Shown one piece after another: positions 23,340 through 43,501 of a stretch of DNA of 64,000 nt. Source of the DNA: a virus. Lineage: Duplodnaviria > Heunggongvirae > Uroviricota > Caudoviricetes. A model generated the notes under the pieces. That model was not told the origin of the DNA. It worked only from the letters and a program-made list of their open reading frames with translations, and made no database searches. Position 1 is the stretch's first letter, and each line of letters begins with the position of its first letter. The stretch is from IMG/VR virus record IMGVR_UViG_3300002641_000714; one strand, 5' to 3'. The position numbers were made by a program, and so were the translations under genes.

Positions 23340-23350
23340 TTTATTTAATT

Positions 23351-24123: not shown

Positions 24124-24125
24124 AA

Positions 24126-24593: not shown

Positions 24594-24596
24594 AAT

Positions 24597-26109: not shown

Positions 26110-26124
26110 AATATACTATATTTT

Positions 26125-26400: not shown

Positions 26401-26417
26401 ATTTTATAATTTTTTAT

Positions 26418-26468
26418 AATTTTTATGTTGCAAAAATAATACTTTTTATTTAAATTAAAAAATAGAAG
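26418..26468 (-). promoter_or_regulatory. Conserved early/middle promoter-like motif (variant)
   Basis: ttttatgttgcaaaaataatactttttatttaaattaaaaaatagaag. Confidence 0.5.
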
Positions 26469-26556
26469 TTTATTATTTTAATTATTATAATTTAAAATGG
26501 GAAAATGTTTCACAACATCTTCCCACCCAATATATAATTAAAAATAATATCATTTT

Positions 26557-27723: not shown

Positions 27724-27731
27724 AAATCACT

Positions 27732-28415
27732 TTATTTAAATTGTTTTTCTTTTAATGCATTCAATTCATTTTCAACTTTTTTAAGTTGTATTTTTGCATT
27801 CTCAGCTTTACGTATAATTTTATTTAACTGCTTTATTTTATGTGTTAATTCACTAACACGATATTCATATATTTCAGTTTTTATTTTATTAATATACTTA
27901 TCAAACTCATCAAGTTTGTATCCAACAACCTGCATATTTACATTAATGCCCAAATCACATGAATGATCCAATACAATATCTTGAAAATACTTGAATTCCA
28001 TCCGTTCTATATAATCACTACCATATAGCCATTTATTTCCAAAATATTTTTCAGTATAATAATAGCCAACAAAAATTGGTTCTGTGCATTCAACATTTAT
28101 AAATTTATATGTTGTGTGCAATTTGTCAGCTTCATTATTGCTATTTTTATATATTGACCATATATCACTTGTTAGATTATTCTTAATAATATCTGCTGAA
28201 ATACCAGTAACAAGACTTACATATTTGCAAAATGCATTTACGTCATTTTCTCGTTCTTTAATATATAAATCTATATGTTTTTTACCACTAATAATAAATC
28301 CATGTCCACAAACAGGAGGCATGTAGTTATATATAAACTCTTTAATATATGGACATAAATCTTTTGGAGAAAATGCCGCAAAATTTTTAGGATCGACTTC
28401 AATTAAATTTTCCAT
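27732..28415 (-). CDS. Hypothetical protein with a C-terminal coiled coil
   Basis: 227-aa ORF with a TAA stop. Confidence 0.55.
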   Translation of the reverse strand: MENLIEVDPKNFAAFSPKDLCPYIKEFIYNYMPPVCGHGFIISGKKHIDLYIKERENDVNAFCKYVSLVTGISADIIKNNLTSDIWSIYKNSNNEADKLHTTYKFINVECTEPIFVGYYYTEKYFGNKWLYGSDYIERMEFKYFQDIVLDHSCDLGINVNMQVVGYKLDEFDKYINKIKTEIYEYRVSELTHKIKQLNKIIRKAENAKIQLKKVENELNALKEKQFK

Positions 28416-28458
28416 TATTAACTTTAATTTTTAAAATTTATAATGTTTACTAATGTTT

Positions 28459-28719
28459 TTAAATTAAACCAATATGAGTACCACAAACCAAACAATCCCT
28501 ACTATACCATCCGCAACCTGTTGGTGTATCAATAAAAATATGAAATTTACATTCGCCATTTTTATTATAATATTCCAAAGCTTCTTCAACTTCTTTTTGT
28601 GTTGCCTCACGTACAGTAGAACCGCCACATTGGCAATGCACATACGTATCATTTTCAGAACACCGCGCTGAAATAATTTGTTTAGTTCTATTTGATATTT
28701 CTACAAATCCTTTTAACAT
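28459..28719 (-). CDS. Small Cys-rich protein
   Basis: 86 aa with multiple Cys pairs (CQCGG, CLVCG). TAA stop. Confidence 0.45.
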   Translation of the reverse strand: MLKGFVEISNRTKQIISARCSENDTYVHCQCGGSTVREATQKEVEEALEYYNKNGECKFHIFIDTPTGCGWYSRDCLVCGTHIGLI

Positions 28720-28742
28720 AATATTAATTTTTACTTAAAAAT

Positions 28743-29018
28743 CTACACATAAATGACTTTGTATATTGTATGCCAAGTTTTTCTTCGTGTCAATACATAA
28801 TATTTACGACGTTCTTTAACATAATAACAATCCTTAATATAATGTGCATCACCATCATTAATAACAGTGGTTTTTCCATTAACCCGAATCATTTCACCTG
28901 GCAATGGCACACGAGTTGCATATGTATGCCACTTTAGCTCTTTGTTAAAAAACTTTGCAATTTCTTTTGCAGTCATTACATACTTTGTAATTTTTACAGG
29001 AATAACTTCATAACCCAT
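28743..29018 (-). CDS. Hypothetical protein
   Basis: Internal start MGYEVIP avoids overlap with the cca gene. The stop is TAG, with 3 further codons to a TAA. Confidence 0.4.
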   Translation of the reverse strand: MGYEVIPVKITKYVMTAKEIAKFFNKELKWHTYATRVPLPGEMIRVNGKTTVINDGDAHYIKDCYYVKERRKYYVLTRRKTWHTIYKVIYV

Positions 29019-29022
29019 ACTT

Positions 29023-30480
29023 TTAAAATTTATAATGTTCATCAATATACTTATATAATGCATCTGGTGTATTCTCAACAATATTATCAAGAACTGCATC
29101 TTTAATAAGTTGTTTAATTTCACCGACTTGCCGACTTGGTGTCAAATGATAACGAATCATAATATCATCTCCAGATACACATGGTTGGAACAATCGCACA
29201 TAATCTTTTTGCTTAAGATCTTCAATACGTTGTTTCAATTCATCATATTGTTTCCAGAAATTTTTCTTCTTCTCTTCATGTTTCGTTGTAATATCGGCTT
29301 TTGCCAAAATTAACAACTCATCAATATAACCATTTGCATCATGAACAAGACGACGTACAGCAGCATCAGTTACACCCTCATCACAAATTGCTTGAGGCCT
29401 CATATGCATACGAACCATAGTCTCTACAAAGTCCATATTTTCATCCAGAGGCATCTTCATGCGGCTGAATATAGATTTTATCATCTTAGCTCCTACATAT
29501 TCGTGGTTGTCAAAAGACCAGCCTTTATGAGCATTCCAAGATCTGGTTTTCATTTTACCAATATCATGAAATAATGCGGCAATACGAAGCCATACATTAT
29601 CAGACTGTTTAGTAACATTGTCAAGTACATGCAAAGTATGCCAGAAAATATTTTTGTGGCCACGTACATACTCAGATACAGTTGAAGCTCTGGTAGTATC
29701 CATTTCTACCAATTCTGGTAAAAACTTTTTAAGTAAACCAAAATTTTTCAGAATTTCAATTCCGTCTTTTGCATGATTAGATGCCATGATTTTCATAAAC
29801 TCTGTAGTAATTCGCTCAGCAGAAATAATATCAAGACGATCTACATTTCGTATAATTCCATCTTGAGTTTTCTGATCAATTCCGAAATCAAGCTTGCACA
29901 TAAAACGAACAGCCCGAAGCATACGTAGTGGGTCATCACTGAATGTAGTATCAGGATCTACAGGAGTCCGAATAATTTTATTCTTCAGATCTTCAATTCC
30001 GTTAAACGGATCAACCAACTCACCAAAATGTTCAGCATTAAGTTGAATAGCCATAGCATTAATTGTAAAATCACGGCGAAGCTGATCATCTTCAAGAGTT
30101 CCATCCTCTACAATAGGTTTACGAGAACCACGTTCATATGATTCTTTACGAGCACCGACAAATTCTACTTCCCAATTTCCAAAATGAACCTGGGCTGTAC
30201 CAAAGTTTTCAAATATTGATAATTTAATATTGTCAAAATTTGATTCCCTTTTCAAATATTCTGTAAAAGCCTCTGCAATTTTCTGTCCCTTTCCGACTAC
30301 CACAACGTCAATATCATCATTGGGCCTGCCAAGAATTAAATCACGAACATAACCGCCGACAACATAACATGGATATTGTAAAGTGTCAGCAACCTTCTGA
30401 ATATTGCAAAGAACTCCAAAAATATCTGGAGTTTTTTGAATTTCTTTTAGAATTGTATTTTTATCAAATTGTGTTAACAT
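29023..30480 (-). CDS. cca: CCA-adding tRNA nucleotidyltransferase with an HD domain
   Basis: GGYVRDLILGRPNDDIDVVV and RRDFTINAMA (class-II nucleotidyltransferase head) plus HD-domain motifs HTLHVLD and HDIGK. Confidence 0.8.
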   Translation of the reverse strand: MLTQFDKNTILKEIQKTPDIFGVLCNIQKVADTLQYPCYVVGGYVRDLILGRPNDDIDVVVVGKGQKIAEAFTEYLKRESNFDNIKLSIFENFGTAQVHFGNWEVEFVGARKESYERGSRKPIVEDGTLEDDQLRRDFTINAMAIQLNAEHFGELVDPFNGIEDLKNKIIRTPVDPDTTFSDDPLRMLRAVRFMCKLDFGIDQKTQDGIIRNVDRLDIISAERITTEFMKIMASNHAKDGIEILKNFGLLKKFLPELVEMDTTRASTVSEYVRGHKNIFWHTLHVLDNVTKQSDNVWLRIAALFHDIGKMKTRSWNAHKGWSFDNHEYVGAKMIKSIFSRMKMPLDENMDFVETMVRMHMRPQAICDEGVTDAAVRRLVHDANGYIDELLILAKADITTKHEEKKKNFWKQYDELKQRIEDLKQKDYVRLFQPCVSGDDIMIRYHLTPSRQVGEIKQLIKDAVLDNIVENTPDALYKYIDEHYKF

Positions 30481-30526
30481 ATTAAATTATAATTAATTTT
30501 TGTAATTTGTTTCTGTATATGTTTAA

Positions 30527-30766
30527 TTAATCACATTTATATTCGTTAATTAACTCATCAAGATTATAAAATACAACTCTTCCATCACATGGCTGATAAA
30601 ATCGTACATCAATTAAATATGTATATTTTAATGTACAATTTATATCATTCATTTCATCTGCAACTATTCTTGAATATAGTGAACCTCCCATTGTATTAAA
30701 TAGTTCAGATTTCTTTTTTAATTCACAAAGTAAATCATAAATATCTTTTTTGTTTTCTATATTCAT
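30527..30766 (-). CDS. Hypothetical protein
   Basis: 79-aa ORF with a TAA stop. Confidence 0.45.
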   Translation of the reverse strand: MNIENKKDIYDLLCELKKKSELFNTMGGSLYSRIVADEMNDINCTLKYTYLIDVRFYQPCDGRVVFYNLDELINEYKCD

Positions 30767-30776
30767 AATTATAATA

Positions 30777-30829
30777 TTTTTAAATTCGATGCAAAATTAA
30801 TACTTTTTTCTTAAATTAAAAAATAGAAG
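30777..30829 (-). promoter_or_regulatory. Conserved early/middle promoter-like motif
   Basis: ttttaaattcgatgcaaaattaatacttttttcttaaattaaaaaatagaag. Confidence 0.55.
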
Positions 30830-30832
30830 TCA

Positions 30833-31441
30833 TTAATACATATTATGATTTAATAGAAGCTTTACAACTTTAGGCAATTTCTTAATATTTTCCTGATCAT
30901 AACCTGCAAATGCAAAATGTTTATAGTATTCTGGTTCATTTCCGAATCCACAAATAATATTAGTTATTTTAATTTCACTGTCGGCAATCATCATACAACC
31001 GTCTATATCAGTTACATCTATATATTTTGTACCAGCAGGAACTTCTACAATACCGATTGCTGGATAATGAGAGGTTTTTGTAAAATGTGCAATATTATAA
31101 AGAATATTACTAAAGATGTTTGCACTGTTATCAGTCATTTGAAAATCAAATACCAATGGCATCTCTTGCAAGCAATTTCCACATTTGATAGTAATTGCAT
31201 CATTACTATTATTATCTTCATCATACAATTTCAAATCATGAAATTTAACATTGCCATGCAAATATTTAGCATTAACCGTTCTAAACATTCCAGTTGGCCA
31301 ATAATGATGAAGAAGAATATCTCCATAAATGTCAATTTCCAATGGAATTGCATACTTACAAGTTTCTTTAGTTGTTTGAAGTTTTTTAAGTTCTTTTGTG
31401 GTGAAAACTTCTTGTTCTCCAAATGTTTTAATTGTTGCCAT
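30833..31441 (-). CDS. Hypothetical protein
   Basis: 202-aa ORF with a TAA stop. Confidence 0.55.
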   Translation of the reverse strand: MATIKTFGEQEVFTTKELKKLQTTKETCKYAIPLEIDIYGDILLHHYWPTGMFRTVNAKYLHGNVKFHDLKLYDEDNNSNDAITIKCGNCLQEMPLVFDFQMTDNSANIFSNILYNIAHFTKTSHYPAIGIVEVPAGTKYIDVTDIDGCMMIADSEIKITNIICGFGNEPEYYKHFAFAGYDQENIKKLPKVVKLLLNHNMY

Positions 31442-31453
31442 AGTTGATATTAT

Positions 31454-31505
31454 TTTTAATTACGATGCAAAATTAATACTTTTTATTTAAATTAAAAAAT
31501 AGAAG
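31454..31505 (-). promoter_or_regulatory. Conserved early/middle promoter-like motif
   Basis: ttttaattacgatgcaaaattaatactttttatttaaattaaaaaatagaag. Confidence 0.55.
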
Positions 31506-31570
31506 TTAATAAAATATCAAAAAACACTACCTAAAATTAGGTAGTGTTATATTATCTATTAATTATTTCA

Positions 31571-32395
31571 TTATCGTCTAATATTCCACATATGTTGGGA
31601 AGAACCATCAAACAATACATCAATATTTGCGCCTTGCTTTTGTTCAATAATAGACCATGCACGTAATTGAATATATTGATCCGGAGACAAATTCATTTCA
31701 CGCATATACGCTTTATCAGCTTTTGCACGTTGTTTTTCCGCTGATTCTCGAACAGTTTCCATTTCTTTTAAACGTTCTTGAGTTTTAGTTTTCTGAATAG
31801 CAGCCGCGGTAAGATTCATTTCTTTCTTTTGTTCCTCATTAGGACTAGCTTTTCCTGTTGTGACAGAAATAATTCTAATTGGCATATCAGCATCTTGTGA
31901 TTTATACTCGACATATTTACGCATATATTCTAATACAATAGAGTCAATTTTTGCATTTACTTCACGATTAGAAATCAAATCGAATGGGCTATACAATGAA
32001 ACACAATCCCTTACTTTATTTCGATAAACCTGTTGAATATTATTTTTATACCAATCGCTTCCATAATTTTGTAATAGAATTGGTGTTTTACCTTTCTCAA
32101 CCTGTATAACAATATATGTGCTAAAATCCAAAGGTGTATTATCATTTGAAAAAATATCATCAAATGTTTCATCATATTGTACTGGAACAATTTTAAACGG
32201 AACACCATATGTAGTTACTGCACACCATTCCAGACCGGTACTAACAGGTGATTTATCTACACCACCATGGCCAAAAAACCAGGGTTGCATAACAAGTACA
32301 GCTTCCTCATCAGCGTTAACCTCTACTGAATGACATGAAGACAAAGTAAACATTGCAAATACTGCAATACTGAAAAAATAAAAAATTTTCTTCAT
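31571..32395 (-). CDS. Lipoprotein with an SPFH/band-7-like coiled region
   Basis: Signal peptide plus lipobox (FTLSSC). TAA stop. Confidence 0.5.
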   Translation of the reverse strand: MKKIFYFFSIAVFAMFTLSSCHSVEVNADEEAVLVMQPWFFGHGGVDKSPVSTGLEWCAVTTYGVPFKIVPVQYDETFDDIFSNDNTPLDFSTYIVIQVEKGKTPILLQNYGSDWYKNNIQQVYRNKVRDCVSLYSPFDLISNREVNAKIDSIVLEYMRKYVEYKSQDADMPIRIISVTTGKASPNEEQKKEMNLTAAAIQKTKTQERLKEMETVRESAEKQRAKADKAYMREMNLSPDQYIQLRAWSIIEQKQGANIDVLFDGSSQHMWNIRR

Positions 32396-32418
32396 AATTA
32401 AAATAAATTTTATTGTTT

Positions 32419-33081
32419 TTAAATAATATTAATTTGACATGATTTCATTACTTCAAGTGCAGCTTTGTGTTTTTCTGGAGTAACTCCAGCACAACATTTG
32501 CTATCCACTGTAATCTCTGCAAAATTATATGTATATGCTTTAAGAATAAGTGCATTAGAAACTACACAAATATCTGTACAGAATCCACACATTTCAATTT
32601 CCATTGGAATATAATTAATATGCCCATTATTTTTAATAATATGATTAATAAATCCATTGTTTTTAATATGTTGAAATGTTCGGTCTTTTTCAAAATTTAA
32701 AACGGTGTCTTTAAGAGTTGATGCAATTTCACCATCTTCAATATAAACTGGATCAACAGAACCAAATGTATTTTTACGAATATATTTAATTTCACATCCT
32801 TGTTTAGCTTTTACTAAGACTGCTTGATAAATAGATTCTTCAATTCGCCACCCTTCACTATTGACCATACAATGTTCAACCGGAAGTTTTTTACCTTCTG
32901 ATGTATCAAGATAATCAAAATAATGAGTGTCCATTGTTAGATAAATTGCATCACCATCAAATGATAAAATTTTGTCAACAATATTTAGAACTGCTTTTTG
33001 AGCATCTTTATTTGCTAATGTGCCAGTAATAAAATCATTCTGTGCATCAACTACTACTAAAACTTTAATCTTATTTTCCAT
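32419..33081 (-). CDS. pncA: Nicotinamidase (isochorismatase family)
   Basis: VLVVVDAQNDFITG and HCMVNSEGWRI match E. coli PncA (LLLVDLQNDF, HCVQNSEGAQL). Catalytic-Cys block IEMCGFCTDICV. Confidence 0.8.
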   Translation of the reverse strand: MENKIKVLVVVDAQNDFITGTLANKDAQKAVLNIVDKILSFDGDAIYLTMDTHYFDYLDTSEGKKLPVEHCMVNSEGWRIEESIYQAVLVKAKQGCEIKYIRKNTFGSVDPVYIEDGEIASTLKDTVLNFEKDRTFQHIKNNGFINHIIKNNGHINYIPMEIEMCGFCTDICVVSNALILKAYTYNFAEITVDSKCCAGVTPEKHKAALEVMKSCQINII

Positions 33082-33083
33082 AA

Positions 33084-33878
33084 TTAAATTAATGTTTTTG
33101 CTTTTTCTAACAAATCTTTAAAACAATTCATAAAATTCTCTGCCATTTCTTTTGTTGGAAAAGATAATGGTTGTGATATTGAAGAATATTGCATAATATT
33201 AATTTTGTTGAGCCGATAACCAATACACCAGTATACTTCAGCATTATTCCAAACAGGCTTCCAATCACGAATCCATGCTTTACGCAATCTAATTAAGCGT
33301 CCAAATGCAATAAGTGCATCTGCATCATCCCCATCAAAGCCGTGTGCAAATTTTGGAATATAATGCGTATGCTTTTCATATGGATAAAAATTATCACAGT
33401 AATCATCCCATGTTTTTGGATATTTTGGTTTTAATTCATCTTCAGTAAAAGCTCTAAGAGCAAATTCACGGAGTTTTCCACCGGCATTATACATTTCTTG
33501 TGCTTCTTCTAATGTAAGTTTAAATGCCCGTGTATTTTCATCTATATCACCATATCGATTTTTAATAACTACTCCATCTACCATAACTTTGTTTGCACAA
33601 TTTTTAAATTTATTTGCAGAGTCAATAGTATTTAATGTAGTTTTATCAAACTCCAAAGTTACGGTAGAATTAACAATTCCATTATTAGATTTAGGTATAA
33701 AATTATCTACTTTCTCTAGTTGGTATGAATAAAAATATGTATTTGGCAACTCTTTAAGTATATATATATTTCGTTTATCACCATTAATATATCTTACATA
33801 ACAAATTGTATATATTTTATTATTTGCCTGATCTTTGCGGTGAACCTTATCGCCAACTTTAAATTTAGATTTTTCCAT
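33084..33878 (-). CDS. Hypothetical protein
   Basis: 264-aa ORF with a TAA stop. Confidence 0.55.
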   Translation of the reverse strand: MEKSKFKVGDKVHRKDQANNKIYTICYVRYINGDKRNIYILKELPNTYFYSYQLEKVDNFIPKSNNGIVNSTVTLEFDKTTLNTIDSANKFKNCANKVMVDGVVIKNRYGDIDENTRAFKLTLEEAQEMYNAGGKLREFALRAFTEDELKPKYPKTWDDYCDNFYPYEKHTHYIPKFAHGFDGDDADALIAFGRLIRLRKAWIRDWKPVWNNAEVYWCIGYRLNKINIMQYSSISQPLSFPTKEMAENFMNCFKDLLEKAKTLI

Positions 33879-33905
33879 AAGTTTTTAAAATTTTAAAATT
33901 TATAA

Positions 33906-34316
33906 TTAATTATCTGTAATATCTTTAGTTTCTCCACATTCATTACATTTAATATTTACACAATGTCCTAATCCTCCCGGAGTAATTTCATATGTAAATT
34001 GTTGTTTCATTGTAGATAAGAATGTTTTACTTTGTTCTGAGTCTTCAATATGGGAATGCGTATTTTTAAATTCCATTGCTGCTTTAGTTTCATTATCTGT
34101 TAATTCAAAAACAATATTTGTTTTCCCATTTTGATAACATGGTTCCAAATCAATATTTTTTCCAGTATTTGGATGTCCGCATATTGGACATTTCCATACA
34201 TATTCGTCATTTGCAACTTTTGGCATTCCAAATTGTAAAGCAGACTCATGCATATCATCAATACTTGCAACAAAATCTCTATTACAATATTCACAATGAC
34301 ATTTATAATATGTCAT
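33906..34316 (-). CDS. Hypothetical zinc-ribbon protein
   Basis: CHCEYCN...CPICGH...CNECG Cys pairs. TAA stop. Confidence 0.5.
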   Translation of the reverse strand: MTYYKCHCEYCNRDFVASIDDMHESALQFGMPKVANDEYVWKCPICGHPNTGKNIDLEPCYQNGKTNIVFELTDNETKAAMEFKNTHSHIEDSEQSKTFLSTMKQQFTYEITPGGLGHCVNIKCNECGETKDITDN

Positions 34317-34383
34317 ATAATATTCCTTTTCTGCCTAATCTAGTGTTCTAATCATATATTTTTATTTTAATTTTTATTTATTT

Positions 34384-35151
34384 TTAGTCCCACCAACCTT
34401 CAATTCCAGATCCATCAAATAATTCTACCTGTGCATCATAAGAACTAAAGTTCTTCTTTTCCTCTTCAGATAATGATTCATATTTTTCTTTAACCATTTG
34501 GCCAAGTTTATCATTATCTTGCCCGAGAATTAATTTAAATATTTTATCATAATGAGCTTTACGTGCTTTCTTTAATGCATTAGCATGACGTTCTTTAGCT
34601 TTTGCAACGGTTTCATCATCTTTATAATTGAATGATACTGAACCATCTGAATATTTTATGATTTTTTCAAGATATGTATCTCGAGGAAAACGCTCATCTA
34701 CTTCTAATTCATAATCTCGCTTAATTTCGGTAATTAACTCTTTAATTGCTGCTATTTTTTTATTACGAGATGCTTCTTCTTCATAACCATAATATTCCAT
34801 TGTATTTGCAAGTTGTTTAAGTCCAAATACAAATAAATCCAATTGGTATTCATAACTCCATGAACGCCATGATTTAATCATTGGTTGAAAACGTTTCAAA
34901 TTACTAAAATACCATTTTGTATCAATCCACCAATCTCTTACATTCCAACCAATACGGAATACAAAAAAATCTTTTATCTTTTCATACCATTTTTTATTAT
35001 TATGACGATCTTCAAAATCATCTTTAAAATAATCATCAAAACTAGTCCATTCCTTAACCGGAACAGCCTCTTTAGCTTTTTCAATTGATTGTTTAGCATT
35101 TTCAAGATTAAATCTTTTGATGCCTTTTTCACTTAATACTTGACTTTTCAT
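34384..35151 (-). CDS. Hypothetical protein
   Basis: 255-aa ORF with a TAA stop. Confidence 0.55.
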   Translation of the reverse strand: MKSQVLSEKGIKRFNLENAKQSIEKAKEAVPVKEWTSFDDYFKDDFEDRHNNKKWYEKIKDFFVFRIGWNVRDWWIDTKWYFSNLKRFQPMIKSWRSWSYEYQLDLFVFGLKQLANTMEYYGYEEEASRNKKIAAIKELITEIKRDYELEVDERFPRDTYLEKIIKYSDGSVSFNYKDDETVAKAKERHANALKKARKAHYDKIFKLILGQDNDKLGQMVKEKYESLSEEEKKNFSSYDAQVELFDGSGIEGWWD

Positions 35152-35154
35152 GTT

Positions 35155-35499
35155 TTAAATATTTTTATTTTCAAAATATGTATTTATACTTGGAAATAAT
35201 TCCCCATCATTTTCATTGTTAATATTTTTTGCATATTTTTTAAATGCTTCAATAAATGCATTCACATCTTCATAATATGAAGTGTCTGGATCATACCAGT
35301 CAAAATTAGGAAATCTTTTACATATAATTCGAGATATTTCATCTGAAAATACTTTATGATATAATTTTTCCCATGCAGTATCATCATATATTTTACTATA
35401 ATCATGATTATTTTCAAAAGCTTTATCACGTGCTATATTATATAAATATTCCAAATATTCTGCGATTTCTTGTGCAGATGCGGTTTCAATTGTTTTCAT
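35155..35499 (-). CDS. Hypothetical protein
   Basis: 114-aa ORF with a TAA stop. Confidence 0.5.
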   Translation of the reverse strand: MKTIETASAQEIAEYLEYLYNIARDKAFENNHDYSKIYDDTAWEKLYHKVFSDEISRIICKRFPNFDWYDPDTSYYEDVNAFIEAFKKYAKNINNENDGELFPSINTYFENKNI

Positions 35500-35547
35500 G
35501 AATTTTATTGTTTATAATTTTATTTCAAAATTCAAAAAAGTTTCTAA

Positions 35548-35985
35548 TTATTTGAATTCCCAATATCCGTAAACACATCGCTCACCATCACGGCCACAAT
35601 CATATGTATCATTAATAACACCATTAATAACCGCGGTCAAGTGCTTACTGACACTACATACGATTTTTCCTTGCATAGGAATTTCATTAACACGAAGGTG
35701 TGCTTTACAACCGGTTCCAATACCCATTAATGGATGCCATGTGCCACCAAGTTGTTTTGCCACTTTTTTACAAATAGATTTCTTTACACCATTGCGCGGT
35801 GATTCTTTTGCATTCTTGAATATAAGATTATATACTTCTTTATAATCTTTACCAGCTGCAATTGCAAATGCACGAGTTACACAATCACCGACTTTTTGTG
35901 CTTTGAAATACCGTGATCTGCCTCCGTCATTGTATTGGAATGCAAGATTCTTTCCATCACTGTCTCTTTGAATTAGTTGTGCCAT
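35548..35985 (-). CDS. Hypothetical protein
   Basis: 145-aa ORF with a TAA stop. Confidence 0.5.
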   Translation of the reverse strand: MAQLIQRDSDGKNLAFQYNDGGRSRYFKAQKVGDCVTRAFAIAAGKDYKEVYNLIFKNAKESPRNGVKKSICKKVAKQLGGTWHPLMGIGTGCKAHLRVNEIPMQGKIVCSVSKHLTAVINGVINDTYDCGRDGERCVYGYWEFK

Positions 35986-35996
35986 ATAACTATAAA

Positions 35997-36485
35997 TTAT
36001 TTGCTAAAAACTTCTTTAAATTCATTAATTGCTTTTATTTCATCTTCTGTTGCAAGACGATAACAATGATCTGTATGAACAGTTTCCCATTCTGGCGATA
36101 GATTTGTAGTGTTTACTGCATATTCTAAATAAGATTCGCCCATAATAGTTAATTTTACAATTCCTGCCAAATGTGCATTTGCAACATAATCACCTACTTC
36201 AAAACCTGTTGACAAACATATAATTTTATCACCATTTTCAAGAATACCATCATTTTTGCATAACAATAAATTAGAATCATTTTCTTTTTTGAAAATAAAA
36301 TATTCTATTTTATTTTCTTCAAAAATTCCAACACACCGAAGTTTAGAATCATCTGACTCTAATTTAAATTTTCTAATATATCCGAATCGTATATCTAAAT
36401 AAATATATTCATTATTTAAATATATTTCTTCATAATCTTCTTTATTTAAAACATTTGGTAAAAGTGTATAAACTGTTGTTTTCAT
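35997..36485 (-). CDS. Hypothetical protein
   Basis: 162-aa ORF with a TAA stop. The promoter-like motif is upstream at 36496-36548. Confidence 0.5.
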   Translation of the reverse strand: MKTTVYTLLPNVLNKEDYEEIYLNNEYIYLDIRFGYIRKFKLESDDSKLRCVGIFEENKIEYFIFKKENDSNLLLCKNDGILENGDKIICLSTGFEVGDYVANAHLAGIVKLTIMGESYLEYAVNTTNLSPEWETVHTDHCYRLATEDEIKAINEFKEVFSK

Positions 36486-36495
36486 AACTATATTA

Positions 36496-36548
36496 TTTTT
36501 AATTACGATGCAAAATTAATAAAATTATTTCAAACTAAAAAATAGAAG
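36496..36548 (-). promoter_or_regulatory. Conserved early/middle promoter-like motif
   Basis: ttttaattacgatgcaaaattaataaaattatttcaaactaaaaaatagaag. Confidence 0.5.
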
Positions 36549-36561
36549 TTAAAAAATAAAA

Positions 36562-36632: not shown

Positions 36633-38552
36633 TTAAAGTCCTACGCAGTTTACATAGAATGTAATATATTGTGTTTCAGGATAGAAACCTGCATCTACAA
36701 GAGCGTAACGAGATTTAATCATAAGTTTTGGAGCCATTGTACCTTCAGCGATAATACGTACAACTTCAGCCATTACATATGGGCAGAAGTGAACACCTGG
36801 TTCATCTTTACCACCTTTACGACCAACTAATACACGAGTATCATTAGCTTTCATCAATGGATCAACGTAAACAGTTAAACCGCAAACAGTACCGATTGGG
36901 TAAAGTTGACCAGCAGTTTGTTTAACAGTATTCTCAATTGGTGAGAAGCTATAGTGTGCATCAGATTGTAACAATGTAGCAACACGGATATTAGTTACAA
37001 CGAATGTAGCAGCACCGTAACGACCACGTTGTTGGATCCAGTTAGAAGCAGCTAAGATGTTTGTGAAGATTCTCTTGATAAGAGTGTCACGGTTCTCGAA
37101 GTTAGCACCTTCAATAACACCCATTGGAAGTACTGGTATGCTAACCATTCTTTGAGAAGCATAACGTTGTTCTTGTTCAAGATATTCACCTTCTGGAATT
37201 GCATATGTAGCCCAGTCAAGATTACTAGGATTTTCTGCATCGAATTTTCTGAAGTTTAAGTTTAAGCATGCGCCAAGACCTTCAACTTCTACCATACGAG
37301 CGTGGTTTTTCCAACCAAGAGCAAACAAACGAGATGTGATGTGACGGTTGATAGTTTGAGAAAGTTCGTTTACACCAGCATTCTCAACAATCTTTAATAC
37401 ATCAATACCCCATTGTTTTTGGAGGTCAGTAACTTGTTCTTGAGTTACAGCACAAGCAACTTGGATAGTACCAACTTGGATGTTCTTTGTGAAGAGTTGT
37501 AATGAGATTTGACGAGCAGGAGTCATTTCACCTGTTGCACGGCTCATTGGTTCAAAAAGAACAGTACCATCTTGATATGTACCAGCCCATGCATCTTCAT
37601 CATGGTCACCAGCACCAGCAAAACCAAGAAGTTGATCCTCTAACATAGAGATTAATTTAGCACCTCTAACTGTAAGAGTAATTGCAGGAGTTTCACTTAC
37701 AAGTTCAACATCCTTTAAGAATGTTTCACCAAGAGATTGGTCGCCATCAACAACTTTGAACATTGGATCACCATCAATACGGCTCCAACCAATAAATTCA
37801 ACTGTAAGATGTTTATCAGCATCCTCAAATCTTACACCAGCTTTTAAACCAGCTTGTTCAAGCTCATATTTGTATTTAACAACTGGATCTGAACCTTGTG
37901 GAACAAGAACAGCTTTAAATGCATGTGGAAGTCCATAAAGACGGAAAGCAGCTGCGCCATTAATTGGTTTTTCTTCATTTGGCCAATTCTCTGGGAATGC
38001 TTTTGTAGAAGAATCAACAGCCATACGACGTTTGTTATAAACATGTGGATTAGCGCTGAATCTATCATATGCAGGAGTTGCACCATATGGTTGTTTGCTA
38101 CCGCTATATACATAGTCCATATAAGGAAGAACACCACTAGGACCTGCAAGAGGAGTAGTATTTACAAGTTCAAAACCAATAGTTTTAGCAGCAACCTTCA
38201 TTGCTAATGGAAGAAGTGCAGGGAATTTGTCACCTGAACCAAGAATTTTATCATCAGCCTATTGTGCGCCGGTCATTGCAGCCATTTTAGGAGCAACTAC
38301 ATTACCAACACCAAGAGTATTGTAAAGGTTGTTATATGGAGCATATGCACCACCGAACTCTGAGAATGCGTTAGCACCCATTTCAGGAGCAGATTCATTT
38401 AAGGATTTAGCTGTGTTGTGAGCAAGTTGACTCATCCAAGCAAGCTTTTCTGGATCCTTAACACCAGTTGTACGAGTAATCATTGGAGCCCAAGCTTCAT
38501 TGATCATTTGCTCTGCATTTTTAGCAGTAGCTTTTTGATTGTTTACTTTCAT
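36633..38552 (-). CDS. Putative major capsid protein (639 aa, 1 in-frame TAG)
   Basis: The track ORFs 38259..38552 and 36633..38201 share one frame ((38552-36633+1)/3=640) and are joined through the TAG at 38259-38261. The region is visibly more GC-rich with biased codons (ggt, gca, aac, ttc, atc), as expected for a highly expressed structural gene. The Gly/Ala-rich N-terminus is typical of processed capsid proteins. The late-type motif is upstream. The functional call is tentative. Confidence 0.5.
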
Positions 38553-39661: not shown

Positions 39662-40483
39662 ATGAAAAACTATAAACAAATATTAGAAGCAATTAATCGT
39701 GGTATTAAATTTGCATTAGACGATTTTGAAGATCAAGATGATATTCAAGGTTAGGATAATAGTAAAGTTAAGTATAAAGGCGGAATTAAAGACTGGTTAG
39801 ATTTAATGAGTGATGTTGTTGATTTAGGACTACCTTCAGGAACTCTTTGGTGCAAGTATAATTTGGGATGTGAAACTGAATTATTAAATGAAGAAGGTGA
39901 AAATAGTGTAGCTGATTGGTGGCAAGGTGATTATTTTGCCTGGGGTATTAATCAGCATAATGATTTTTTTACATGGGGGTCTTATGATTATTCAGACTGG
40001 GCTATAAAAATGTTGCCTAATTTAAAAACAGAAAATTGGGTTCTTAAATTATTTAAATATTGTTATGAAAAAGATACAGTTGCATCTATATGTGATGAAC
40101 CTGATAATAAAATGAAACTTGATTTGGAAGATGATGCAGCTTATGTAAAAAATAACAAATACTGCATACCGTCTACAGAACAATTTCAAGAATTATTAGA
40201 TAATACAAAACATAAATTTGTTGCAAATTATAATAATATTTCCGGACTAAACGGTATATTATTTGCATCTATCTATAATCAAAATACAATATTTTTTCCG
40301 CTTGCAGGTTATATGAATGAAGAAAATATCAGAAGAAAAAATACACAAGGTTTTTATTGGACATGTGATTTAAGCCCAAAATATCAAACATGCGCAAATT
40401 CATTTAATTTAACAAAGAAAACAGTAGAAGTTGGAAGTTATAGACGTGACCAAGGTTGTTCAATAAGGCCTGTATTAAAATAG
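39662..40483 (+). CDS. Leader-family-1 protein A with a DUF1566-like domain (1 in-frame TAG)
   Basis: ATG at 39662. Leader MKNYKQILEAINRGIKFALDDFEDQDDIQG, then TAG (39752-39754) exactly where paralogs E and F have Gln (QGQ), then DVVDLGLPSGTLWCKYNLG, YFAWG, IPSTEQFQELL and a C-terminal SIRPVLK. Confidence 0.65.
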
Positions 40484-40501
40484 TAAAAAAAACTCTAAAA
40501 T

Positions 40502-41341
40502 ATGAAAAATTATAAACATATATTAGAAGCTATAAATAGAGGAATTAAATTTGCATTAGATGACTTTGATGATAATGAAATTCAAGGTTAGATTAGTAGT
40601 AAAGTTAATCATCAACATGGAACTAAAGAATATCTAGACTTTGTGAATGAAGTTGTTGATTTGGGGCTTCCTTCAGGAACTTTGTGGTGCAAATATAACT
40701 TAGATGTTAATCCTAATCAGTTAACTAAACCTGAAGACTGGTATGGAAAATATTATGCATGGGGCGAATTAGGAGGAAATAAAACTAATAAAGATGGTAT
40801 AATTTATTTTTATTGGTCTAATTATAAATTTGGAAAATATGATTTAACTAAATATTGTAATGATTCAGAACATGGATTAAATGGTTTTACTGATAATTTA
40901 ACAGAACTTCAACTAGAAGATGATGTTGCATATCAAAACAAAAAACTTTATAATTATAAATTCCATATACCAACTAAAGAACAGTGTGAAGAATTATTGA
41001 AATATACTAATAATTATTGGGTTGTTAATTATAATCCTAATAAAACTATTCATAATCCAAAAGATGATGGCGGAATTCAAGGTTTGGATGGTGGAATATT
41101 TGAAGGAAGAAATGGAAATCAATTGTTTATTCCAGCAGCCGGATTCCGATAGGATTTATGTCGCTATCATGTTGGTTTTTATGGTCACTTGTGGTCTTCT
41201 AGTCTTTACTTAAAAGATTGTAGCAATGCTTACTGCTTAAGCATTAATTCAAACATTATCAATATATACAATGAGGAGCATACATATAATTATGGAGAAC
41301 GTATATATGGTTATAGTATTCGTCCAGTATTAAATTTATAA
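40502..41341 (+). CDS. Leader-family-1 protein B with a DUF1566-like domain (2 in-frame TAGs)
   Basis: Leader MKNYKHILEAINRGIKFALDDFDDNEIQG-TAG. The track ORF 40643..41152 is internal. Read-through of the TAG at 41150 gives the conserved C-terminus ...GYSIRPVLNL and a TAA at 41339-41341. Confidence 0.65.
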
Positions 41342-41354
41342 ATTAATTATTTAA

Positions 41355-42554
41355 ATGAAAAACTATAATAAAATATTAGAAGCTGTTAATAGAGGAATTA
41401 AATTTGCATTAGATGACTTTGATGATAATGAACTTCAAGGTCAAGTTAGCGGTAAAATCAATAATAAAAGTAATCTTAAAGATTGGCTTGAGTGGCAAGA
41501 ATGGATTAAAAAAATTGAAGCTAGAAGTTTAAAAACAGTAAAAGATATATAGGAATTAGCAGATTTTTCAAAATCAAGCAGATTTAAATATGAGGTTGGG
41601 AATAACCGTAATTTATTAATATCTTTAATTAATTATATAATTGAAATTGATTCAACTGCTGATTTAAACTGGATTGACGTATCTAAAATAACAGATATGA
41701 CACAATTATTTGATAATAGTAAATTTAATGGTAATATATCTGAATGGGATGTGTCTAATGTTGTAACAATGCGTCAAATGTTTATATTTTCTCATTTTAA
41801 TGGTAATATATCTAATTGGAATGTATCTAATGTTAAAGATATGCATAATATGTTCAGATGCTCTTATTTTAATGGTGATATATCTAATTGGAATGTATCT
41901 AATGTTAAAAATATGTCTGGTATGTTTAAAGATACATTTAATTTTAATAAACCATTAAATAATTGGAATGTTTCTGGTGTTGAAAATATGAGTGAAATGT
42001 TTCACGGATCTAGAAGATTTAATCAACCACTTAATAATTGGAATGTTTCTAATGTTAAAGATATGGCACAAATATTCTGTAATTGTAAATTTAATCAAGA
42101 TATTAATAATTGGGATGTTTCTAATGTGGAAGATATGCGTTGTATGTTTATGCAAAATCAATATTTTAATAAACCGCTTAATAATTGGAATGTTTCTAAT
42201 GTTAAAATGTTTGCAAGTATGTTTTGCGCATCTATATTTAATTAGCCGATTGGAAAATGGAATATGTCTAAAGCAATATCTCTTAGTGGAATGTTTAAGG
42301 GTTCAAGATTTAATTAGAATATTAATAATTGGAATGTTTCTGGTGTAAAATAGATGCATGAAATGTTTTGTAATTCCCGTTTTAATAAACCATTAGATAA
42401 ATGGAATGTTAGCAATGTTTGGGATATGGAATACATGTTTCAATCATCACAATTTAATCAAGATATATCAATGTGGAATATAAATCCTAATGTAAAAACA
42501 ATTTGTATATTTAAAGATGCTGTTATATAGAAAGAATATAAACCAAAAGTATTA
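41355..42554 (+). CDS. Leader-family-1 protein C with about 10 DUF285-like repeats (5 in-frame TAGs)
   Basis: Leader with QGQ (CAA). The track fragments 41355..41552 and 41697..42245 are in the same frame. Repeats have the form FNGNISNWNVSNVKDMHNMF. TAGs fall at repeat positions that are Q in sister repeats (FN-TAG-PIG vs FNQPL). TAA at 42552-42554. Confidence 0.65.
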
Positions 42555-42564
42555 AGAAAATATA

Positions 42565-43501
42565 AATGATAAATTATAAACAAATATTAGAAGCGGTTAA
42601 CAGAGGTATTAAATTTGCTTTAGATGACTTTGAAGATCAAGAAGATATTCAAGGTTAGATTAATAGTAAGGTTAATAATAAAAGTAATATTAAAGAATAT
42701 TTAGAATGGAATAAATGTCTTGATTTATTATTTAAGAATGTTGATACTAATTATTTTAATAAAATGGTTAAATTATCAAAAATAATTGGTATACAATATA
42801 AAGTTAATGATATAGATACATTAAAAAATATTATAAATTGGTCTTGCCAGATATGTCCGAATAATGATGCAAATTTAAATTGGTTAGATGTTTCTGAATT
42901 AACATCAATGTATGGTTTATTTGGAAATGATTATACTAAAAATTTTAATGGTGATATTTCTAAATGGGATGTATCTAATGTTGAAGATATGAATTATATG
43001 TTTTATAAAAGCAATTTTAATGGTAATATTTCTAAATGGGATGTGTCAAAAGTTAAACATATGAATTATATGTTTTCACACTCTATATTTAATGGTGATA
43101 TTTCTAATTGGAATGTATCAAAAGTTGAAACTATGATTGGTATGTTTAAAGAAGTTAGACCATATGATTACCCATTGGATAATTGGGATGTATCTAATGT
43201 TAAAAATATGTCTGACATGTTTAGTGATTCATGGTTTAACCAACCATTAAATAATTGGGATGTATCTGGTGTTGAAAATATGGCACATATGTTTTCTGGC
43301 TCACAATATGATTAGCCATTAGATAAATGGGATGTATCTAATGTTAAAAATATGGATTCAATGTTTTCTGCATCTCATTTCAGACAAAATATTAGTAATT
43401 GGAATATTAGTAAAGACTGTAATACTAATAATATGTGGAGATTAGGCATGTAGTATGATATTAATAAACCGCCAAAAACAAGATTAAGATATAGACGTTA
43501 A
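42565..43501 (+). pseudogene. Leader-family-1 paralog D, frameshifted in its leader, with a DUF285-repeat body
   Basis: From ATG 42565 the sequence MINYKQILEAVN is followed by an extra C (gttaacCagaggt at about 42600) that puts RGIKFALDDFEDQEDIQG-TAG-... and the repeat body (track ORF 42764..43315, read on through a TAG to the TAA at 43499-43501) in the +1 frame. This is a sequencing error, a pseudogene, or expression from the internal start at 42764. Confidence 0.4.

What the first reader, a model, noticed from the sequence alone, without database searches (positions are those of the whole stretch)
39662..43501. Amber (TAG) codons are read as glutamine: TAG aligns with CAA/CAG in paralogs
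Six paralogs share an N-terminal module that ends ...IQGQ. In three of them (39752-39754, the same position in the 40502 gene, and at about 42655) the codon after QG is TAG. In the other three it is CAA or CAG (41355 gene QGQVSG, minus-strand 57980 gene QGQTSS, and 59155-region QGQSSS).

The same holds inside the DUF285-like repeats: FN-TAG-PIGKW against FNQPLNNW. It holds again for PhoH, where TAG read-through restores the conserved C-terminus DCVRNPII, and for the tail sheath and the GIY-YIG NUMOD3 repeats. Read-through joins at least 15 fragmented track ORFs into full-length proteins that end at TAA or TGA.

TGA is not recoded, since it terminates many well-defined genes (for example at 3904-3906). 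This is code 15 (TAG as Gln), reported in the literature for some Lak and crAss-like gut phages. Any standard-code annotation of this contig would be badly fragmented.
Basis: partly seen in the sequence, partly recalled or inferred. Interest (0 to 1): 0.9.

Follow-up and report, generated by a model that had tools for sequence, protein, structure and literature searches.

The report
Amber codon read as glutamine, Lak-like megaphage
This window comes from a giant sheep-rumen phage related to the Lak megaphages that reads the TAG stop codon as glutamine and carries its own amber-suppressor tRNA, a recoding already well described for this group of phages.

Summary

- **TAG inside genes.** TAG sits in frame in 19 window genes. 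These include the major capsid protein, the tail sheath, PhoH and the four paralogs at 39662-43501. Removing TAG as a stop raises coding coverage from 0.81 to 0.90. Removing TGA gives no gain.
- **TAG means glutamine.** Across 121 kb of this genome compared with relatives, TAG pairs with glutamine codons in 28% of non-identical pairs, against a 3.4% background (p about 1e-51).
- **Suppressor tRNA.** The window is 100% identical to two contigs of ENA assembly ERZ12302819, so the genome is at least about 469 kb. About 83 kb beyond the window's right end, the same genome encodes a tRNA with a CUA anticodon. Its family resembles tRNA-Gln most.
- **Closest known relatives.** These are the Prevotella Lak megaphages (capsid 61% identical), for which code 15 and suppressor tRNAs are already published.
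- **TAG is unevenly spread.** 36 consecutive genes, several of them RNA- and nucleotide-metabolism enzymes, carry a single TAG where about 20 are expected, and the replication genes elsewhere in the window carry none. Several of these genes follow a Bacteroidetes-type promoter motif. Several TAG-bearing genes follow a T4-late-like motif. This fits the published early/late code-switch model.

Verdict: a new member of a known kind. It matters for annotation but is not surprising.

The parts
39662..40486 (+). Paralog 1: conserved N-terminal module plus a FISUMP-like C-terminal domain. TAG at 39752-39754 (codon 31) and at 40481-40483, directly followed by TAA.
   Evidence: weak TIGR02145 match; both TAG codons are kept in strain variant L005
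40502..41341 (+). Paralog 2: same module and domain. TAG at 40589-40591 (codon 30) and at 41150-41152.
   Evidence: in L005 codon 30 is CAA, and two CAA/CAG codons of the window are TAG there
41355..42569 (+). Paralog 3: N-terminal module plus DUF285/PARCEL repeats. CAA at the module junction (41442-41444). TAG at 41550, 42243, 42315, 42351 and 42528.
   Evidence: Pfam DUF285 E 5e-97; repeat register; a JGI standard-code protein, P0135, equals its first 65 residues and is cut at the first TAG
42566..43501 (+). Paralog 4: N-terminal module plus DUF285/PARCEL repeats. TAG at 42656, 43313 and 43451.
57210..60028 (-). Paralogs 5 and 6 (57210-57980 and 57977-60028). CAA at the module junction (57890-57888 and 58684-58682). 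3 and 6 further in-frame TAG respectively.
36633..38552 (-). Major capsid protein (T4 gp23 type), 639 aa, with one TAG at 38261-38259 (codon 98).
   Evidence: Pfam Gp23; single tblastn piece over residues 7-639 to the Lak phages; relatives have TAG, CAA, CAG, TAY or TTY at this codon
52523..55837 (-). Tail sheath, 1104 aa, with one TAG at 55678-55676 (codon 54).
   Evidence: Pfam Phage_sheath_1C; the N-terminus aligns with Lak-C1 and L018 across the TAG
62540..63268 (+). PhoH-like ATPase, 242 aa. TAG at 63176 and 63227.
63434..64000 (+). GIY-YIG/NUMOD3 endonuclease that runs off the window (300 aa in L001). TAG at 63677.
3440..5304 (+). Two genes of unknown function with the highest TAG density: 3440-3910 (4 TAG) and 3910-5304 (11 TAG in 464 codons).
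   Evidence: both have Lak-C1 homologues; no Pfam or PHROG match
11848..13035 (+). Gene of unknown function with 4 TAG. It carries a second shared N-terminal module (KKIIYESIMSLVAKQVKNVLNE), also found at 48620-49123 and 49251-49661.
13071..36485 (-). Block of 36 genes with essentially no TAG: 7020 codons, 1 TAG, about 20 expected. It includes RNA ligase, an NAPRT-like enzyme and a CCA-adding enzyme.
   Evidence: Poisson P 3e-8; out-of-frame TAG is common in the block (14 per 1000)
36480..36560 (-). One of nine copies of a ~60-nt promoter-like motif (...GTATTAATTTTGCATCG...) that contains the Bacteroidetes -7 box TAnnTTTG. Seven copies lie 62-67 nt before the ATG of genes with no internal TAG. 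The other copies start at 8371, 9987, 15559, 15811, 21937, 26467, 30828 and 31504; this one starts at 36547.

Best explanation
The window belongs to a megaphage of at least about 469 kb and about 28% G+C from sheep rumen. It is a distant relative of the Prevotella Lak phages. In this phage the amber codon TAG is decoded as glutamine (NCBI table 15), while TAA and TGA remain stops.

**Proposed mechanism.**
- The phage encodes its own tRNA with anticodon CUA. This tRNA belongs to a phage amber-suppressor family that is closest to tRNA-Gln.
- It is presumably charged by the host glutaminyl-tRNA synthetase and outcompetes host release factor 1.
- Genes with no TAG can be translated by the unmodified host machinery early in infection. 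These are the replication and nucleotide/RNA-metabolism genes, several of them behind a host-type Bacteroidetes promoter motif.
- Genes with internal TAG yield full-length protein only once the suppressor tRNA is present. These are the capsid, the sheath, PhoH, homing endonucleases, and the DUF285 and N-module paralog families. Several of them sit behind a T4-late-like AATAAATATA motif.

**Shown here:** TAG is sense; TAG corresponds to Gln; the tRNA(CUA) gene exists in the same genome; TAG is absent from a defined gene set.

**Inferred:** charging by GlnRS; the timing of expression; the promoter assignments.
For: **TAG is sense.**
- Coverage rises from 0.81 to 0.897 only when TAG is recoded.
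- Domain and ortholog alignments run across TAG in PhoH, the capsid and the sheath.
- None of the 73 table-15 gene models needs TAG as its terminator (62 TAA, 11 TGA).

**TAG corresponds to Gln.**
- Paralogs and repeats show TAG against CAA.
- Of 300 non-identical codon pairs that involve TAG, 84 are Gln, against a background of 3.4% (binomial p 9e-52). The substitution profile fits Q best (log-likelihood -786, against -833 for K and -840 for E).

**Suppressor tRNA in the same genome.**
- The window is 100% identical to NODE_557 and NODE_4 of ERZ12302819 over the overlaps checked.
- NODE_4 carries a tRNA(CUA) at L147 9875-9950.
- A covariance model built from 18 other CUA tRNAs scores it at 57.8 bits, E 5e-15.
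- The model's best hits outside the CUA tRNAs are tRNA-Gln: 66.8, 63.1 and 52.9 bits.
- The acceptor stem and discriminator base are identical to a relative's tRNA-Gln(UUG).
- 12 of 20 stem pairs show compensatory changes across the family.

**Family context.**
- The capsid is 61% identical to Lak phages. For Lak phages, code 15, CUA suppressor tRNAs and RF2 are published (PMC6784885, PMC8346664).
- Q at TAG was confirmed by proteomics in crAss-like phages (bioRxiv 10.1101/2022.01.06.475225).

**Uneven TAG use.**
- Searches show which genes lack TAG.
- The link between the two promoter motifs and TAG use gives Fisher p 0.005 on 13 genes.
Against: - Rfam's general tRNA model does not report the tRNA(CUA) of this genome even at E<=10. 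Its D arm lacks U8, A14 and A21, so its function is not guaranteed.
- Only about 121 of at least 469 kb were seen, so a second suppressor tRNA, RF2 or other code-change genes could not be checked.
- There is no peptide evidence.
- About 70% of the pairs with TAG are not Gln (N, K and E are next), as expected at variable surface positions but not proof of exclusivity.
- Two otherwise TAG-free genes end TAG+4 codons+TGA (7263) and TAG-TAG+2 codons+TAA (10704/10701). There TAG may act as a true stop.
- The promoter and timing inference rests on small numbers and on motif resemblance recalled from the literature.
Confidence: 0.93

Rival explanations
1. TAG has two meanings over the course of infection. 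Early on, host RF1 reads it as a stop, so N-terminal fragments are made and a few early genes truly end at TAG. Once the suppressor tRNA accumulates, it is read as Gln. This extends the best explanation rather than excluding it.
For: - TAG-free early-type genes contrast with TAG-bearing structural and accessory genes.
- Tandem TAG-TAG followed two codons later by TAA sits at the end of an otherwise TAG-free gene (10704/10701). TAG+4 codons+TGA sits at 7263.
- The published model proposes such a switch (bioRxiv 10.1101/2021.08.26.457843).
Against: - There are no expression data.
- About 1.3 C-terminal TAG are expected by chance across 73 genes, so only the tandem TAG-TAG stands out.
- No relatives of that gene were found with which to test conservation of the short extension.
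Confidence: 0.3
2. TAG is a sense codon but encodes another residue: Lys, Glu, Tyr or pyrrolysine. ARAGORN labels the tRNA 'Pyl'.
For: - K, N and E are the next most frequent partners of TAG.
- At capsid codon 98, many Lak relatives have TAT or TAC.
- ARAGORN labels any tRNA with a CUA anticodon as Pyl.
Against: - The Gln profile wins by 47 log-likelihood units.
- The tRNA family is closest to tRNA-Gln and shares its acceptor stem.
- The tRNA has a normal T loop (TTCGA), G18-G19 and a 5-6 nt variable region, unlike tRNA-Pyl (tRNA-Pyl features from general knowledge).
- TAG to TAY is a single-base step away from a Q codon, which explains the capsid site.
Confidence: 0.03
3. The standard code applies. 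The TAG-interrupted reading frames are pseudogenes, separate small genes, or assembly errors.
For: Public standard-code annotations do list the fragments as separate proteins.
Against: - Essential genes (capsid, sheath) would be broken.
- The same TAG codons recur in a 97.8%-identical strain from another sample and in relatives at about 80% identity.
- TAG alternates specifically with CAA/CAG.
- A cognate suppressor tRNA is present.
- TGA and TAA never occur in frame in the same way.
Confidence: 0.01

Closest known systems
Prevotella Lak megaphages (Devoto et al. 2019, PMC6784885; Crisci et al. 2021, PMC8346664)
   Same: - T4-type capsid, portal, sheath, gp32 and gp46/47-like genes; the capsid is 61% identical.
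- Very large, AT-rich genome.
- TAG read as Gln, with large TAG-free regions.
- Suppressor tRNA(CUA). Lak-C1 has two.
- The local arrangement of tRNA(CUA), a GIY-YIG gene and a 116-aa protein is shared with Lak-C1 in the clade relative L101. In this genome the tRNA(CUA) and the 116-aa gene are present without the GIY-YIG gene.
   Different: - Most proteins are only 30-60% identical, and gene order is not conserved with Lak-C1.
- The source is sheep rumen.
- The genome is about 469 kb or more at 28% G+C, which matches none of the published GC26, GC31 or 660-kb groups.
- The N-terminal module family was not found in Lak-C1.
- In this window the replication genes are TAG-free, whereas in Lak-C1 they are reported as mostly alternatively coded (bioRxiv 10.1101/2021.08.26.457843, Fig. 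S5 legend).
- The tRNA(CUA) has an atypical D arm.
TAG-recoded crAss-like and other gut phages (Ivanova et al. 2014; Borges et al. 2021/2022; Peters et al. 2022)
   Same: - Code 15.
- The amber-suppressor tRNAs come from the same sequence family. The pattern scan returned 95 IMG/VR stretches, many on contigs of about 55-105 kb; their taxonomy was not checked.
- Early genes are compatible with the standard code, while late genes need the switch.
   Different: - Unrelated phage lineage and genome size.
- In those phages the recoded genes form one late module. Here TAG-bearing genes are scattered in several islands.
Phage T4 early/late transcription programme
   Same: - T4-like core genes.
- An AATAAATATA motif resembling the T4 late promoter TATAAATA lies 14-45 nt before five TAG-bearing genes.
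- A host-type promoter motif precedes the TAG-free genes.
   Different: - T4 uses the standard code.
- The promoter roles here are inferred from sequence only.

Membership tests
Stop-codon-recoded phage using genetic code 15 (TAG = Gln) | In-frame TAG inside conserved domains and orthologous proteins | tested here: met
   PhoH, capsid and sheath alignments span TAG.
Stop-codon-recoded phage using genetic code 15 (TAG = Gln) | Coding density and ORF length rise specifically when TAG is not a stop, while TAA and TGA still terminate genes | tested here: met
   Coverage goes from 0.81 to 0.897 for TAG and to 0.814 for TGA. Terminators are 62 TAA and 11 TGA. The RNA ligase that ends at TGA matches its profile to the end.
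Stop-codon-recoded phage using genetic code 15 (TAG = Gln) | TAG aligns preferentially with glutamine in homologues | tested here: met
   84 of 300 pairs are Gln against a 3.4% background. The Q profile is best by 47 log-likelihood units. Paralogs and repeats agree.
Stop-codon-recoded phage using genetic code 15 (TAG = Gln) | Cognate suppressor tRNA (anticodon CUA) encoded in the same genome | tested here: met
   Found at L147 9875-9950 on NODE_4. The family model scores it at 57.8 bits. Caveat: Rfam RF00005 does not report it.
Stop-codon-recoded phage using genetic code 15 (TAG = Gln) | Peptides with Q at TAG positions | not testable with these tools
   This needs metaproteomics of the sheep rumen samples.
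Stop-codon-recoded phage using genetic code 15 (TAG = Gln) | Phage-encoded RF2 or another factor acting against RF1 (reported in some Lak phages; not universal) | not tested
   Only about 121 of at least 469 kb could be read. No release-factor family appears in the gene lists.
Lak megaphage clade | Lak-type capsid and other core proteins | tested here: met
   The capsid is 61% identical over 99% of its length. The sheath, SbcCD, gp32 and primase homologues are 45-57% identical.
Lak megaphage clade | Genome of about 0.46-0.66 Mb with 26-31% G+C | tested here: met
   NODE_557 (74,813 bp) and NODE_4 (394,637 bp) are joined by the window. G+C is about 28%. Whether these two contigs make up the complete genome is not shown.
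Lak megaphage clade | Synteny with published Lak genomes (holds for the GC26 and GC31 groups, not for the 660-kb horse lineage) | tested here: not met
   Window genes map to scattered Lak-C1 positions.
Lak megaphage clade | Placement inside the Lak clade by large-terminase phylogeny; Prevotella host shown by CRISPR spacers | not tested
   The terminase is not in the sequence seen, and no spacer search was possible. A Bacteroidetes-type -7 box in the repeated promoter motif is only a hint.
tRNA-Pyl (ARAGORN's label for the CUA tRNA) | The atypical tRNA-Pyl architecture: very short D loop without G18-G19, 3-nt variable loop, no T-psi-C sequence (from general knowledge) | tested here: not met
   The tRNA has GG in the D loop, a TTCGA T loop and a 5-6 nt variable region. 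It is closest to tRNA-Gln.

The most novel reading that the evidence does not exclude
In this lineage TAG may be a deliberately two-state codon.
- In early genes it still serves as a real terminator, backed up a few codons later by TAA or TGA (TAG-TAG-nn-nn-TAA at 10704-10690; TAG+4 codons+TGA at 7263).
- In the expanded paralog families it sits exactly at the junction between a conserved 30-residue N-terminal module and the variable body. Before the switch, such a gene would yield only the short module peptide. After the switch, it would yield the full protein.
- The switch itself would depend on a suppressor tRNA whose tertiary core (C8, no A14 or A21) is unusual enough to escape the standard tRNA model. 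Such cores might be one reason why suppressors are detected in only about 40% of TAG-recoded phage genomes.
Probability: 0.12. Interest if true: 0.55.

Novelty: new member of a known kind. Interest (0 to 1): 0.3.

Why it matters
**Practical.** Standard-code annotation cuts about a quarter of the genes in this genome into pieces. Public protein databases already hold such fragments, for example a JGI protein that is the first 65 residues of the 41355 gene. Any functional or taxonomic analysis of this phage should therefore use table 15.

**Scientific.** The window adds a diverged rumen lineage to the Lak-like megaphages. For this lineage it resolves how TAG is read, with a suppressor tRNA in hand. 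Crisci et al. 2021 reported that the translation of TAG could not be resolved for several Lak lineages.

**What it does not change.** The clean split in this window between TAG-free replication and nucleotide-metabolism genes and TAG-bearing structural and accessory genes gives more sequence-level support to the published idea that recoding times late gene expression. It does not add a new concept to it.

Tried and rejected
**Searches inside the window**
- No tRNA was found with ARAGORN at default settings, with introns allowed, or at lowered thresholds. The low-threshold hits lie inside genes. Rfam found none either.

**Routes to the rest of the genome that failed**
- An exact 53-mer from the finding was not found in IMG/VR.
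- Walking out from the window edges with the look-up of encoding contigs gave about 8 kb on each side and no tRNA.
- The Lak-C1 portal sits 2.4 kb from its suppressor tRNAs, so I used it as an anchor. The search for related loci reached only close Lak relatives. In the homologue search I could not tell which portal belongs to this genome.
- A D-arm plus anticodon-loop pattern taken from the Lak suppressor found Lak and other phages but not this clade.
- Sampling the genome through the N-module paralogs gave L063 and L065, neither with a CUA tRNA.
- The GIY-YIG gene is not multi-copy in Lak-C1, so I dropped it as an anchor.

**The route that worked**
- The repeated promoter 18-mer led to L101, then to the neighbouring ADP-ribosyltransferase gene, then to a member of its protein cluster on NODE_4, and so to L147.

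**Other negative results**
- Rfam's tRNA model does not report the tRNA of this genome.
- No relatives were found for the gene that ends in TAG-TAG.
- Pfam and PHROGs give no function for the most TAG-rich genes.

**Hypotheses rejected**
- TGA recoding: no coverage gain.
- TAA recoding: the coverage gain comes from merging ORFs in an AT-rich sequence, and TAA ends 62 of the 73 genes.
- Pyrrolysine: see the rival explanations.


Full report
**1. The observation**

Reading 39600-43560 shows four tandem plus-strand genes that begin MKNYKQILEA(I/V)NRGIKFALDDF...QG (the fourth begins MINY...). The codon after QG is TAG at 39752, 40589 and 42656. It is CAA at 41442 and in the two minus-strand paralogs, at 57890 and 58684.

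In the DUF285 repeats, TAG occupies the position after FN/YD, where other repeats have Q, K or G. FNQPLNNW stands against FN-TAG-PIGKW.

- The Pfam PhoH match covers profile positions 1-202 of 205 and crosses the TAG at residue 213, as does the alignment to PDB 3b85.
- The capsid gene (Pfam Gp23) matches Lak phages as one piece over residues 7-639, across the TAG at codon 98.
- The sheath N-terminus MGKISIDL... is conserved with Lak-C1 upstream of the TAG at codon 54.
- The GIY-YIG/NUMOD3 gene has a TAG at 63677.

One detail is wrong. 'TGA at 3904-3906' is out of frame, and that gene ends at TAA 3908-3910.

**2. Is it more than chance?**

In an AT-rich sequence, removing any stop codon lengthens ORFs, so I compared the three stops.
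- Greedy non-overlapping ORF coverage is 0.81 with the standard code, 0.897 without TAG and 0.814 without TGA.
- The gain without TAA (0.867) comes from merging. TAA ends 62 of the 73 gene models and TGA ends 11.
- Long ORFs that end in TAG continue in frame for at least 30 codons in 50% of cases, against 13-19% for TAA and TGA.
- With table 15, 19 window genes carry 55 in-frame TAG, and 14 of them join at least two fragments of 30 or more codons.
- TAG makes up 7.8% of the Gln-type codons (CAA 575, CAG 75, TAG 55).

**3. Where the window comes from**

- The capsid places the phage next to the Prevotella Lak megaphages at 61% identity.
- Exact protein look-ups put the window on two contigs of ENA assembly ERZ12302819: NODE_557 (74,813 bp) and NODE_4 (394,637 bp). 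Coverage is about 53x for both.
- The window is identical to them over the 13,389 and 10,042 bases I could compare. It bridges their 55-base overlap at 53959-54013. The genome is therefore at least about 469 kb.
- The same sequences occur in run SRR873603 and in WGS set AUXO01, both cited in a sheep rumen study (PMC4158751).
- IMG/VR holds a strain 97.8% identical (L005) and relatives with about 80% capsid identity.
- Gene order is not conserved with Lak-C1, and most proteins are 30-60% identical. This is a separate lineage of Lak-like phages.
- The collection's own gene calls on these contigs already have table-15 lengths. JGI standard-code proteins of the same family are fragments cut at TAG.

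**4. Which amino acid?**

I called table-15 genes on 121 kb of this genome: the window, its two flanks, L063 and L147. That gave 134 genes, 145 in-frame TAG in 50 of them, and coverage of 0.85-0.93. I aligned them to all related DNA held, at the codon level.

- Counting each distinct partner codon once per site, TAG pairs with Gln in 84 of 300 non-identical pairs. The background Gln frequency is 3.4% (binomial p 9e-52).
- N (37), K (31) and E (30) follow.
- The whole partner profile fits that of Gln codons best: log-likelihood -786, against -833 for K and -840 for E.
- Between the window and strain L005, five of seven changes involving TAG are to or from CAA/CAG, and four of them involve CAA. 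TAG to CAA needs two base changes, which points to selection on the residue, or to exchange between paralogs, rather than to mutational proximity.
- At capsid codon 98, relatives show CAG (distant), TAG or CAA (close) and TAY (Lak proper). That is a path through TAG as a Gln-equivalent codon.

**5. The suppressor tRNA**

None lies in the window or its flanks. Lak-C1, which I fetched whole, has two CUA tRNAs and one UUA tRNA.

How I found this genome's copy:
- An 18-mer from a promoter-like repeat in the window retrieved many IMG/VR loci.
- One of them, L101, comes from the same sample as L005. It carries a tRNA(CUA) next to a GIY-YIG gene, an ADP-ribosyltransferase gene and a 116-aa gene. The Lak-C1 homologue of that 116-aa gene also adjoins a suppressor tRNA.
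- The ADP-ribosyltransferase led, through its protein cluster, to a member on NODE_4.
- ARAGORN finds a tRNA(CUA) just upstream of it, at L147 9875-9950. That is NODE_4 at about 93.07 kb, roughly 83 kb beyond the window's right end. The identical sequence is in the Logan contig.

What the tRNA looks like:
- It is 76 nt and 62% G+C in a 28% G+C genome. It has four fully paired stems, an anticodon loop CUCUAAA, a T loop TTCGACT and an encoded CCA. A hairpin and T-run follow it.
- Rfam's general tRNA model does not report it, although it reports L101's homologue at 46 bits.
- The D arm (C8, GCGC-GUCGGUC-GCGC) lacks the near-universal U8, A14 and A21.

A non-circular check:
- I built a covariance model from 18 other CUA tRNAs recovered by a pattern scan.
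- It scores this genome's tRNA at 57.8 bits, E 5e-15, over its full length.
- The family alignment folds into a cloverleaf, with compensatory changes in 12 of 20 pairs.
- The model's best hits outside the CUA tRNAs are tRNA-Gln(UUG) of a 490-kb relative (66.8 bits) and the two Lak-C1 tRNA-Gln (63.1 and 52.9 bits), ahead of Lys at 50.7 bits.
- The acceptor stem and discriminator base of this genome's suppressor are identical to that relative's tRNA-Gln.
- ARAGORN's 'Pyl' label reflects only the anticodon.

**6. Distribution of TAG and likely mechanism**

TAG is far from evenly spread.
- The 36 genes between 13071 and 36485 hold 1 TAG in 7020 codons, where about 20 are expected (P 3e-8). Out-of-frame TAG is common there.
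- That block encodes RNA ligase, an NAPRT-like enzyme and a CCA-adding enzyme.
- Other TAG-free genes are DNA polymerase, SbcC/SbcD, primase, gp32 and thymidylate synthase.
- TAG-bearing genes are the capsid, the sheath, PhoH, the HNH and GIY-YIG endonucleases, the paralog families and several genes of unknown function.

Two upstream motifs go with this split.
- A 60-nt motif...TTCTATTTTTTAATTTAAG-AAAAAGTATTAATTTTGCATCGTAATTAAAAAT..., occurs nine times. Seven copies lie 62-67 nt before the ATG of genes with no internal TAG. It contains TAnnTTTG, which I recognise from general knowledge as the Bacteroidetes -7 promoter box.
- ATAAATATA resembles the T4 late promoter TATAAATA. It occurs ten times, six of them 14-45 nt before a start codon. 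Five of those six genes carry TAG.
- The association gives Fisher p 0.005. It rests on 13 genes and is only suggestive.

Together this fits the published model. Early genes are readable in the host's code. Late and accessory genes need the phage tRNA (PMC6784885; bioRxiv 10.1101/2021.08.26.457843). Charging by host GlnRS is inferred, not shown.

**7. Comparison with what is known, and verdict**

- Code 15 in Lak phages, their CUA suppressor tRNAs and RF2 are published (PMC6784885, PMC8346664).
- TAG as Q has proteomic support in crAss-like phages (bioRxiv 10.1101/2022.01.06.475225).

What is new here is modest:
- a rumen lineage of Lak-like phage that is not syntenic with Lak-C1;
- a clear Gln assignment for that lineage;
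- a suppressor tRNA with an atypical core;
- replication genes that are TAG-free, whereas in Lak-C1 they are reported as mostly recoded.

Open points:
- whether the C-terminal TAGs at 7263 and 10704/10701 are true early stops;
- whether a second suppressor tRNA or RF2 exists in the 350 kb not seen.

The finding is confirmed, correctly interpreted, and a new member of a known kind.

Noticed in passing
window 8371, 9987, 15559, 15811, 21937, 26467, 30828, 31504, 36547 (minus strand, motif start): A conserved ~60-nt promoter-like element (...CTTCTATTTTTTAATTTAAGAAAAAAGTATTAATTTTGCATCGTAATTAAAAATAAT...). Seven of the nine copies lie 62-67 nt upstream of the ATG of genes with no internal TAG. It contains TAnnTTTG, the Bacteroidetes -7 box. 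The same 18-mer occurs many times in related IMG/VR contigs.
   Followed up: partly
window 15314-15846: A 533-bp gap with no called gene holds two tandem copies of that promoter-like element, 252 bp apart. No Rfam match. It might produce small transcripts.
   Followed up: no
window 11815, 39647, 48581, 49218, 51921 (+) and 55883 (-): AATAAATATA, which resembles the T4 late promoter TATAAATA, lies 14-45 nt before six start codons. Five of these genes carry in-frame TAG.
   Followed up: partly
window 10690-10704 and 7246-7263 (minus strand): Two otherwise TAG-free genes end ...AAT TAG TAG TTA TGT TAA and ...GAT TAG AGC TTA TTT ATT TGA. TAG may be the real terminator here, with a back-up stop a few codons later.
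   Followed up: partly
window 11848-13035, 48620-49123, 49251-49661 (+): A second shared N-terminal module (KK(I/A)(I/L)YESIM(S/T)(L/S)VA(K/R)(Q/E)VK(N/K)(V/T)LNE) heads three otherwise unrelated genes. This parallels the MKNYKQILEA...QGQ module of the finding. It could be a targeting or packaging signal.
   Followed up: no
L147 9875-9950 (NODE_4 of ERZ12302819, about 83 kb right of the window): The suppressor tRNA(CUA) of this genome has C8 and a D arm made only of G, C and U (no A14 or A21). Rfam RF00005 does not report it even at E<=10, while ARAGORN and a family-specific model do. Such cores might be one reason why suppressor tRNAs are under-detected in recoded phages.
   Followed up: partly
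L147 10001-10552 and L101 1138-1692: An ADP-ribosyltransferase gene (PF03496) lies directly downstream of the suppressor tRNA in this genome. In L101 a GIY-YIG gene sits between them. A 116-aa gene follows; its Lak-C1 homologue also adjoins a suppressor tRNA.
   Followed up: no
L101 1722-3125 (-); Lak-C1 loci L030, L031, L035, L040: A 467-aa ORF with 12 in-frame TAG. It looks like a TnpB/IS605-type protein by eye (motif GIDMNPN); this was not checked with any profile search. It is present in several copies at 70-75% nucleotide identity in Lak-C1, so it may be a mobile element written in the recoded code.
   Followed up: no
window 53959-54013: The window bridges the 55-base overlap between two contigs (NODE_557 and NODE_4) of the public ENA assembly. 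It therefore comes from a better-joined version of the same genome.
   Followed up: yes
P0121-P0240, e.g. P0135: All 120 listed database relatives of the N-terminal module are short proteins (37-108 aa). P0135 is exactly the first 65 residues of the 41355 gene, cut at its first TAG. Some others come from short contigs.
   Followed up: partly
window 34337-34335 (minus strand): The only TAG in the TAG-free block sits at codon 7 of the longest ORF 33906-34355. It is conserved as TAG in three relatives at 69-99% identity. The true start may be the Met at codon 14, which would leave the TAG in the leader.
   Followed up: no
window 45268-46072 (minus strand): The HNH endonuclease ORF (3 TAG) overlaps a 155-aa ORF in another frame that matches phrog_12005. 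The HNH gene probably starts at an internal Met near 45654. It lies next to the DNA polymerase gene, whose PHROG match covers mainly the C-terminal half of family-B polymerases, so the polymerase may be split.
   Followed up: no
Lak-C1 MK250029.1 c254126-254198: Lak-C1 also encodes a tRNA with anticodon UUA (reads TAA), as published for all Lak genomes. Whether this genome has one could not be checked.
   Followed up: no
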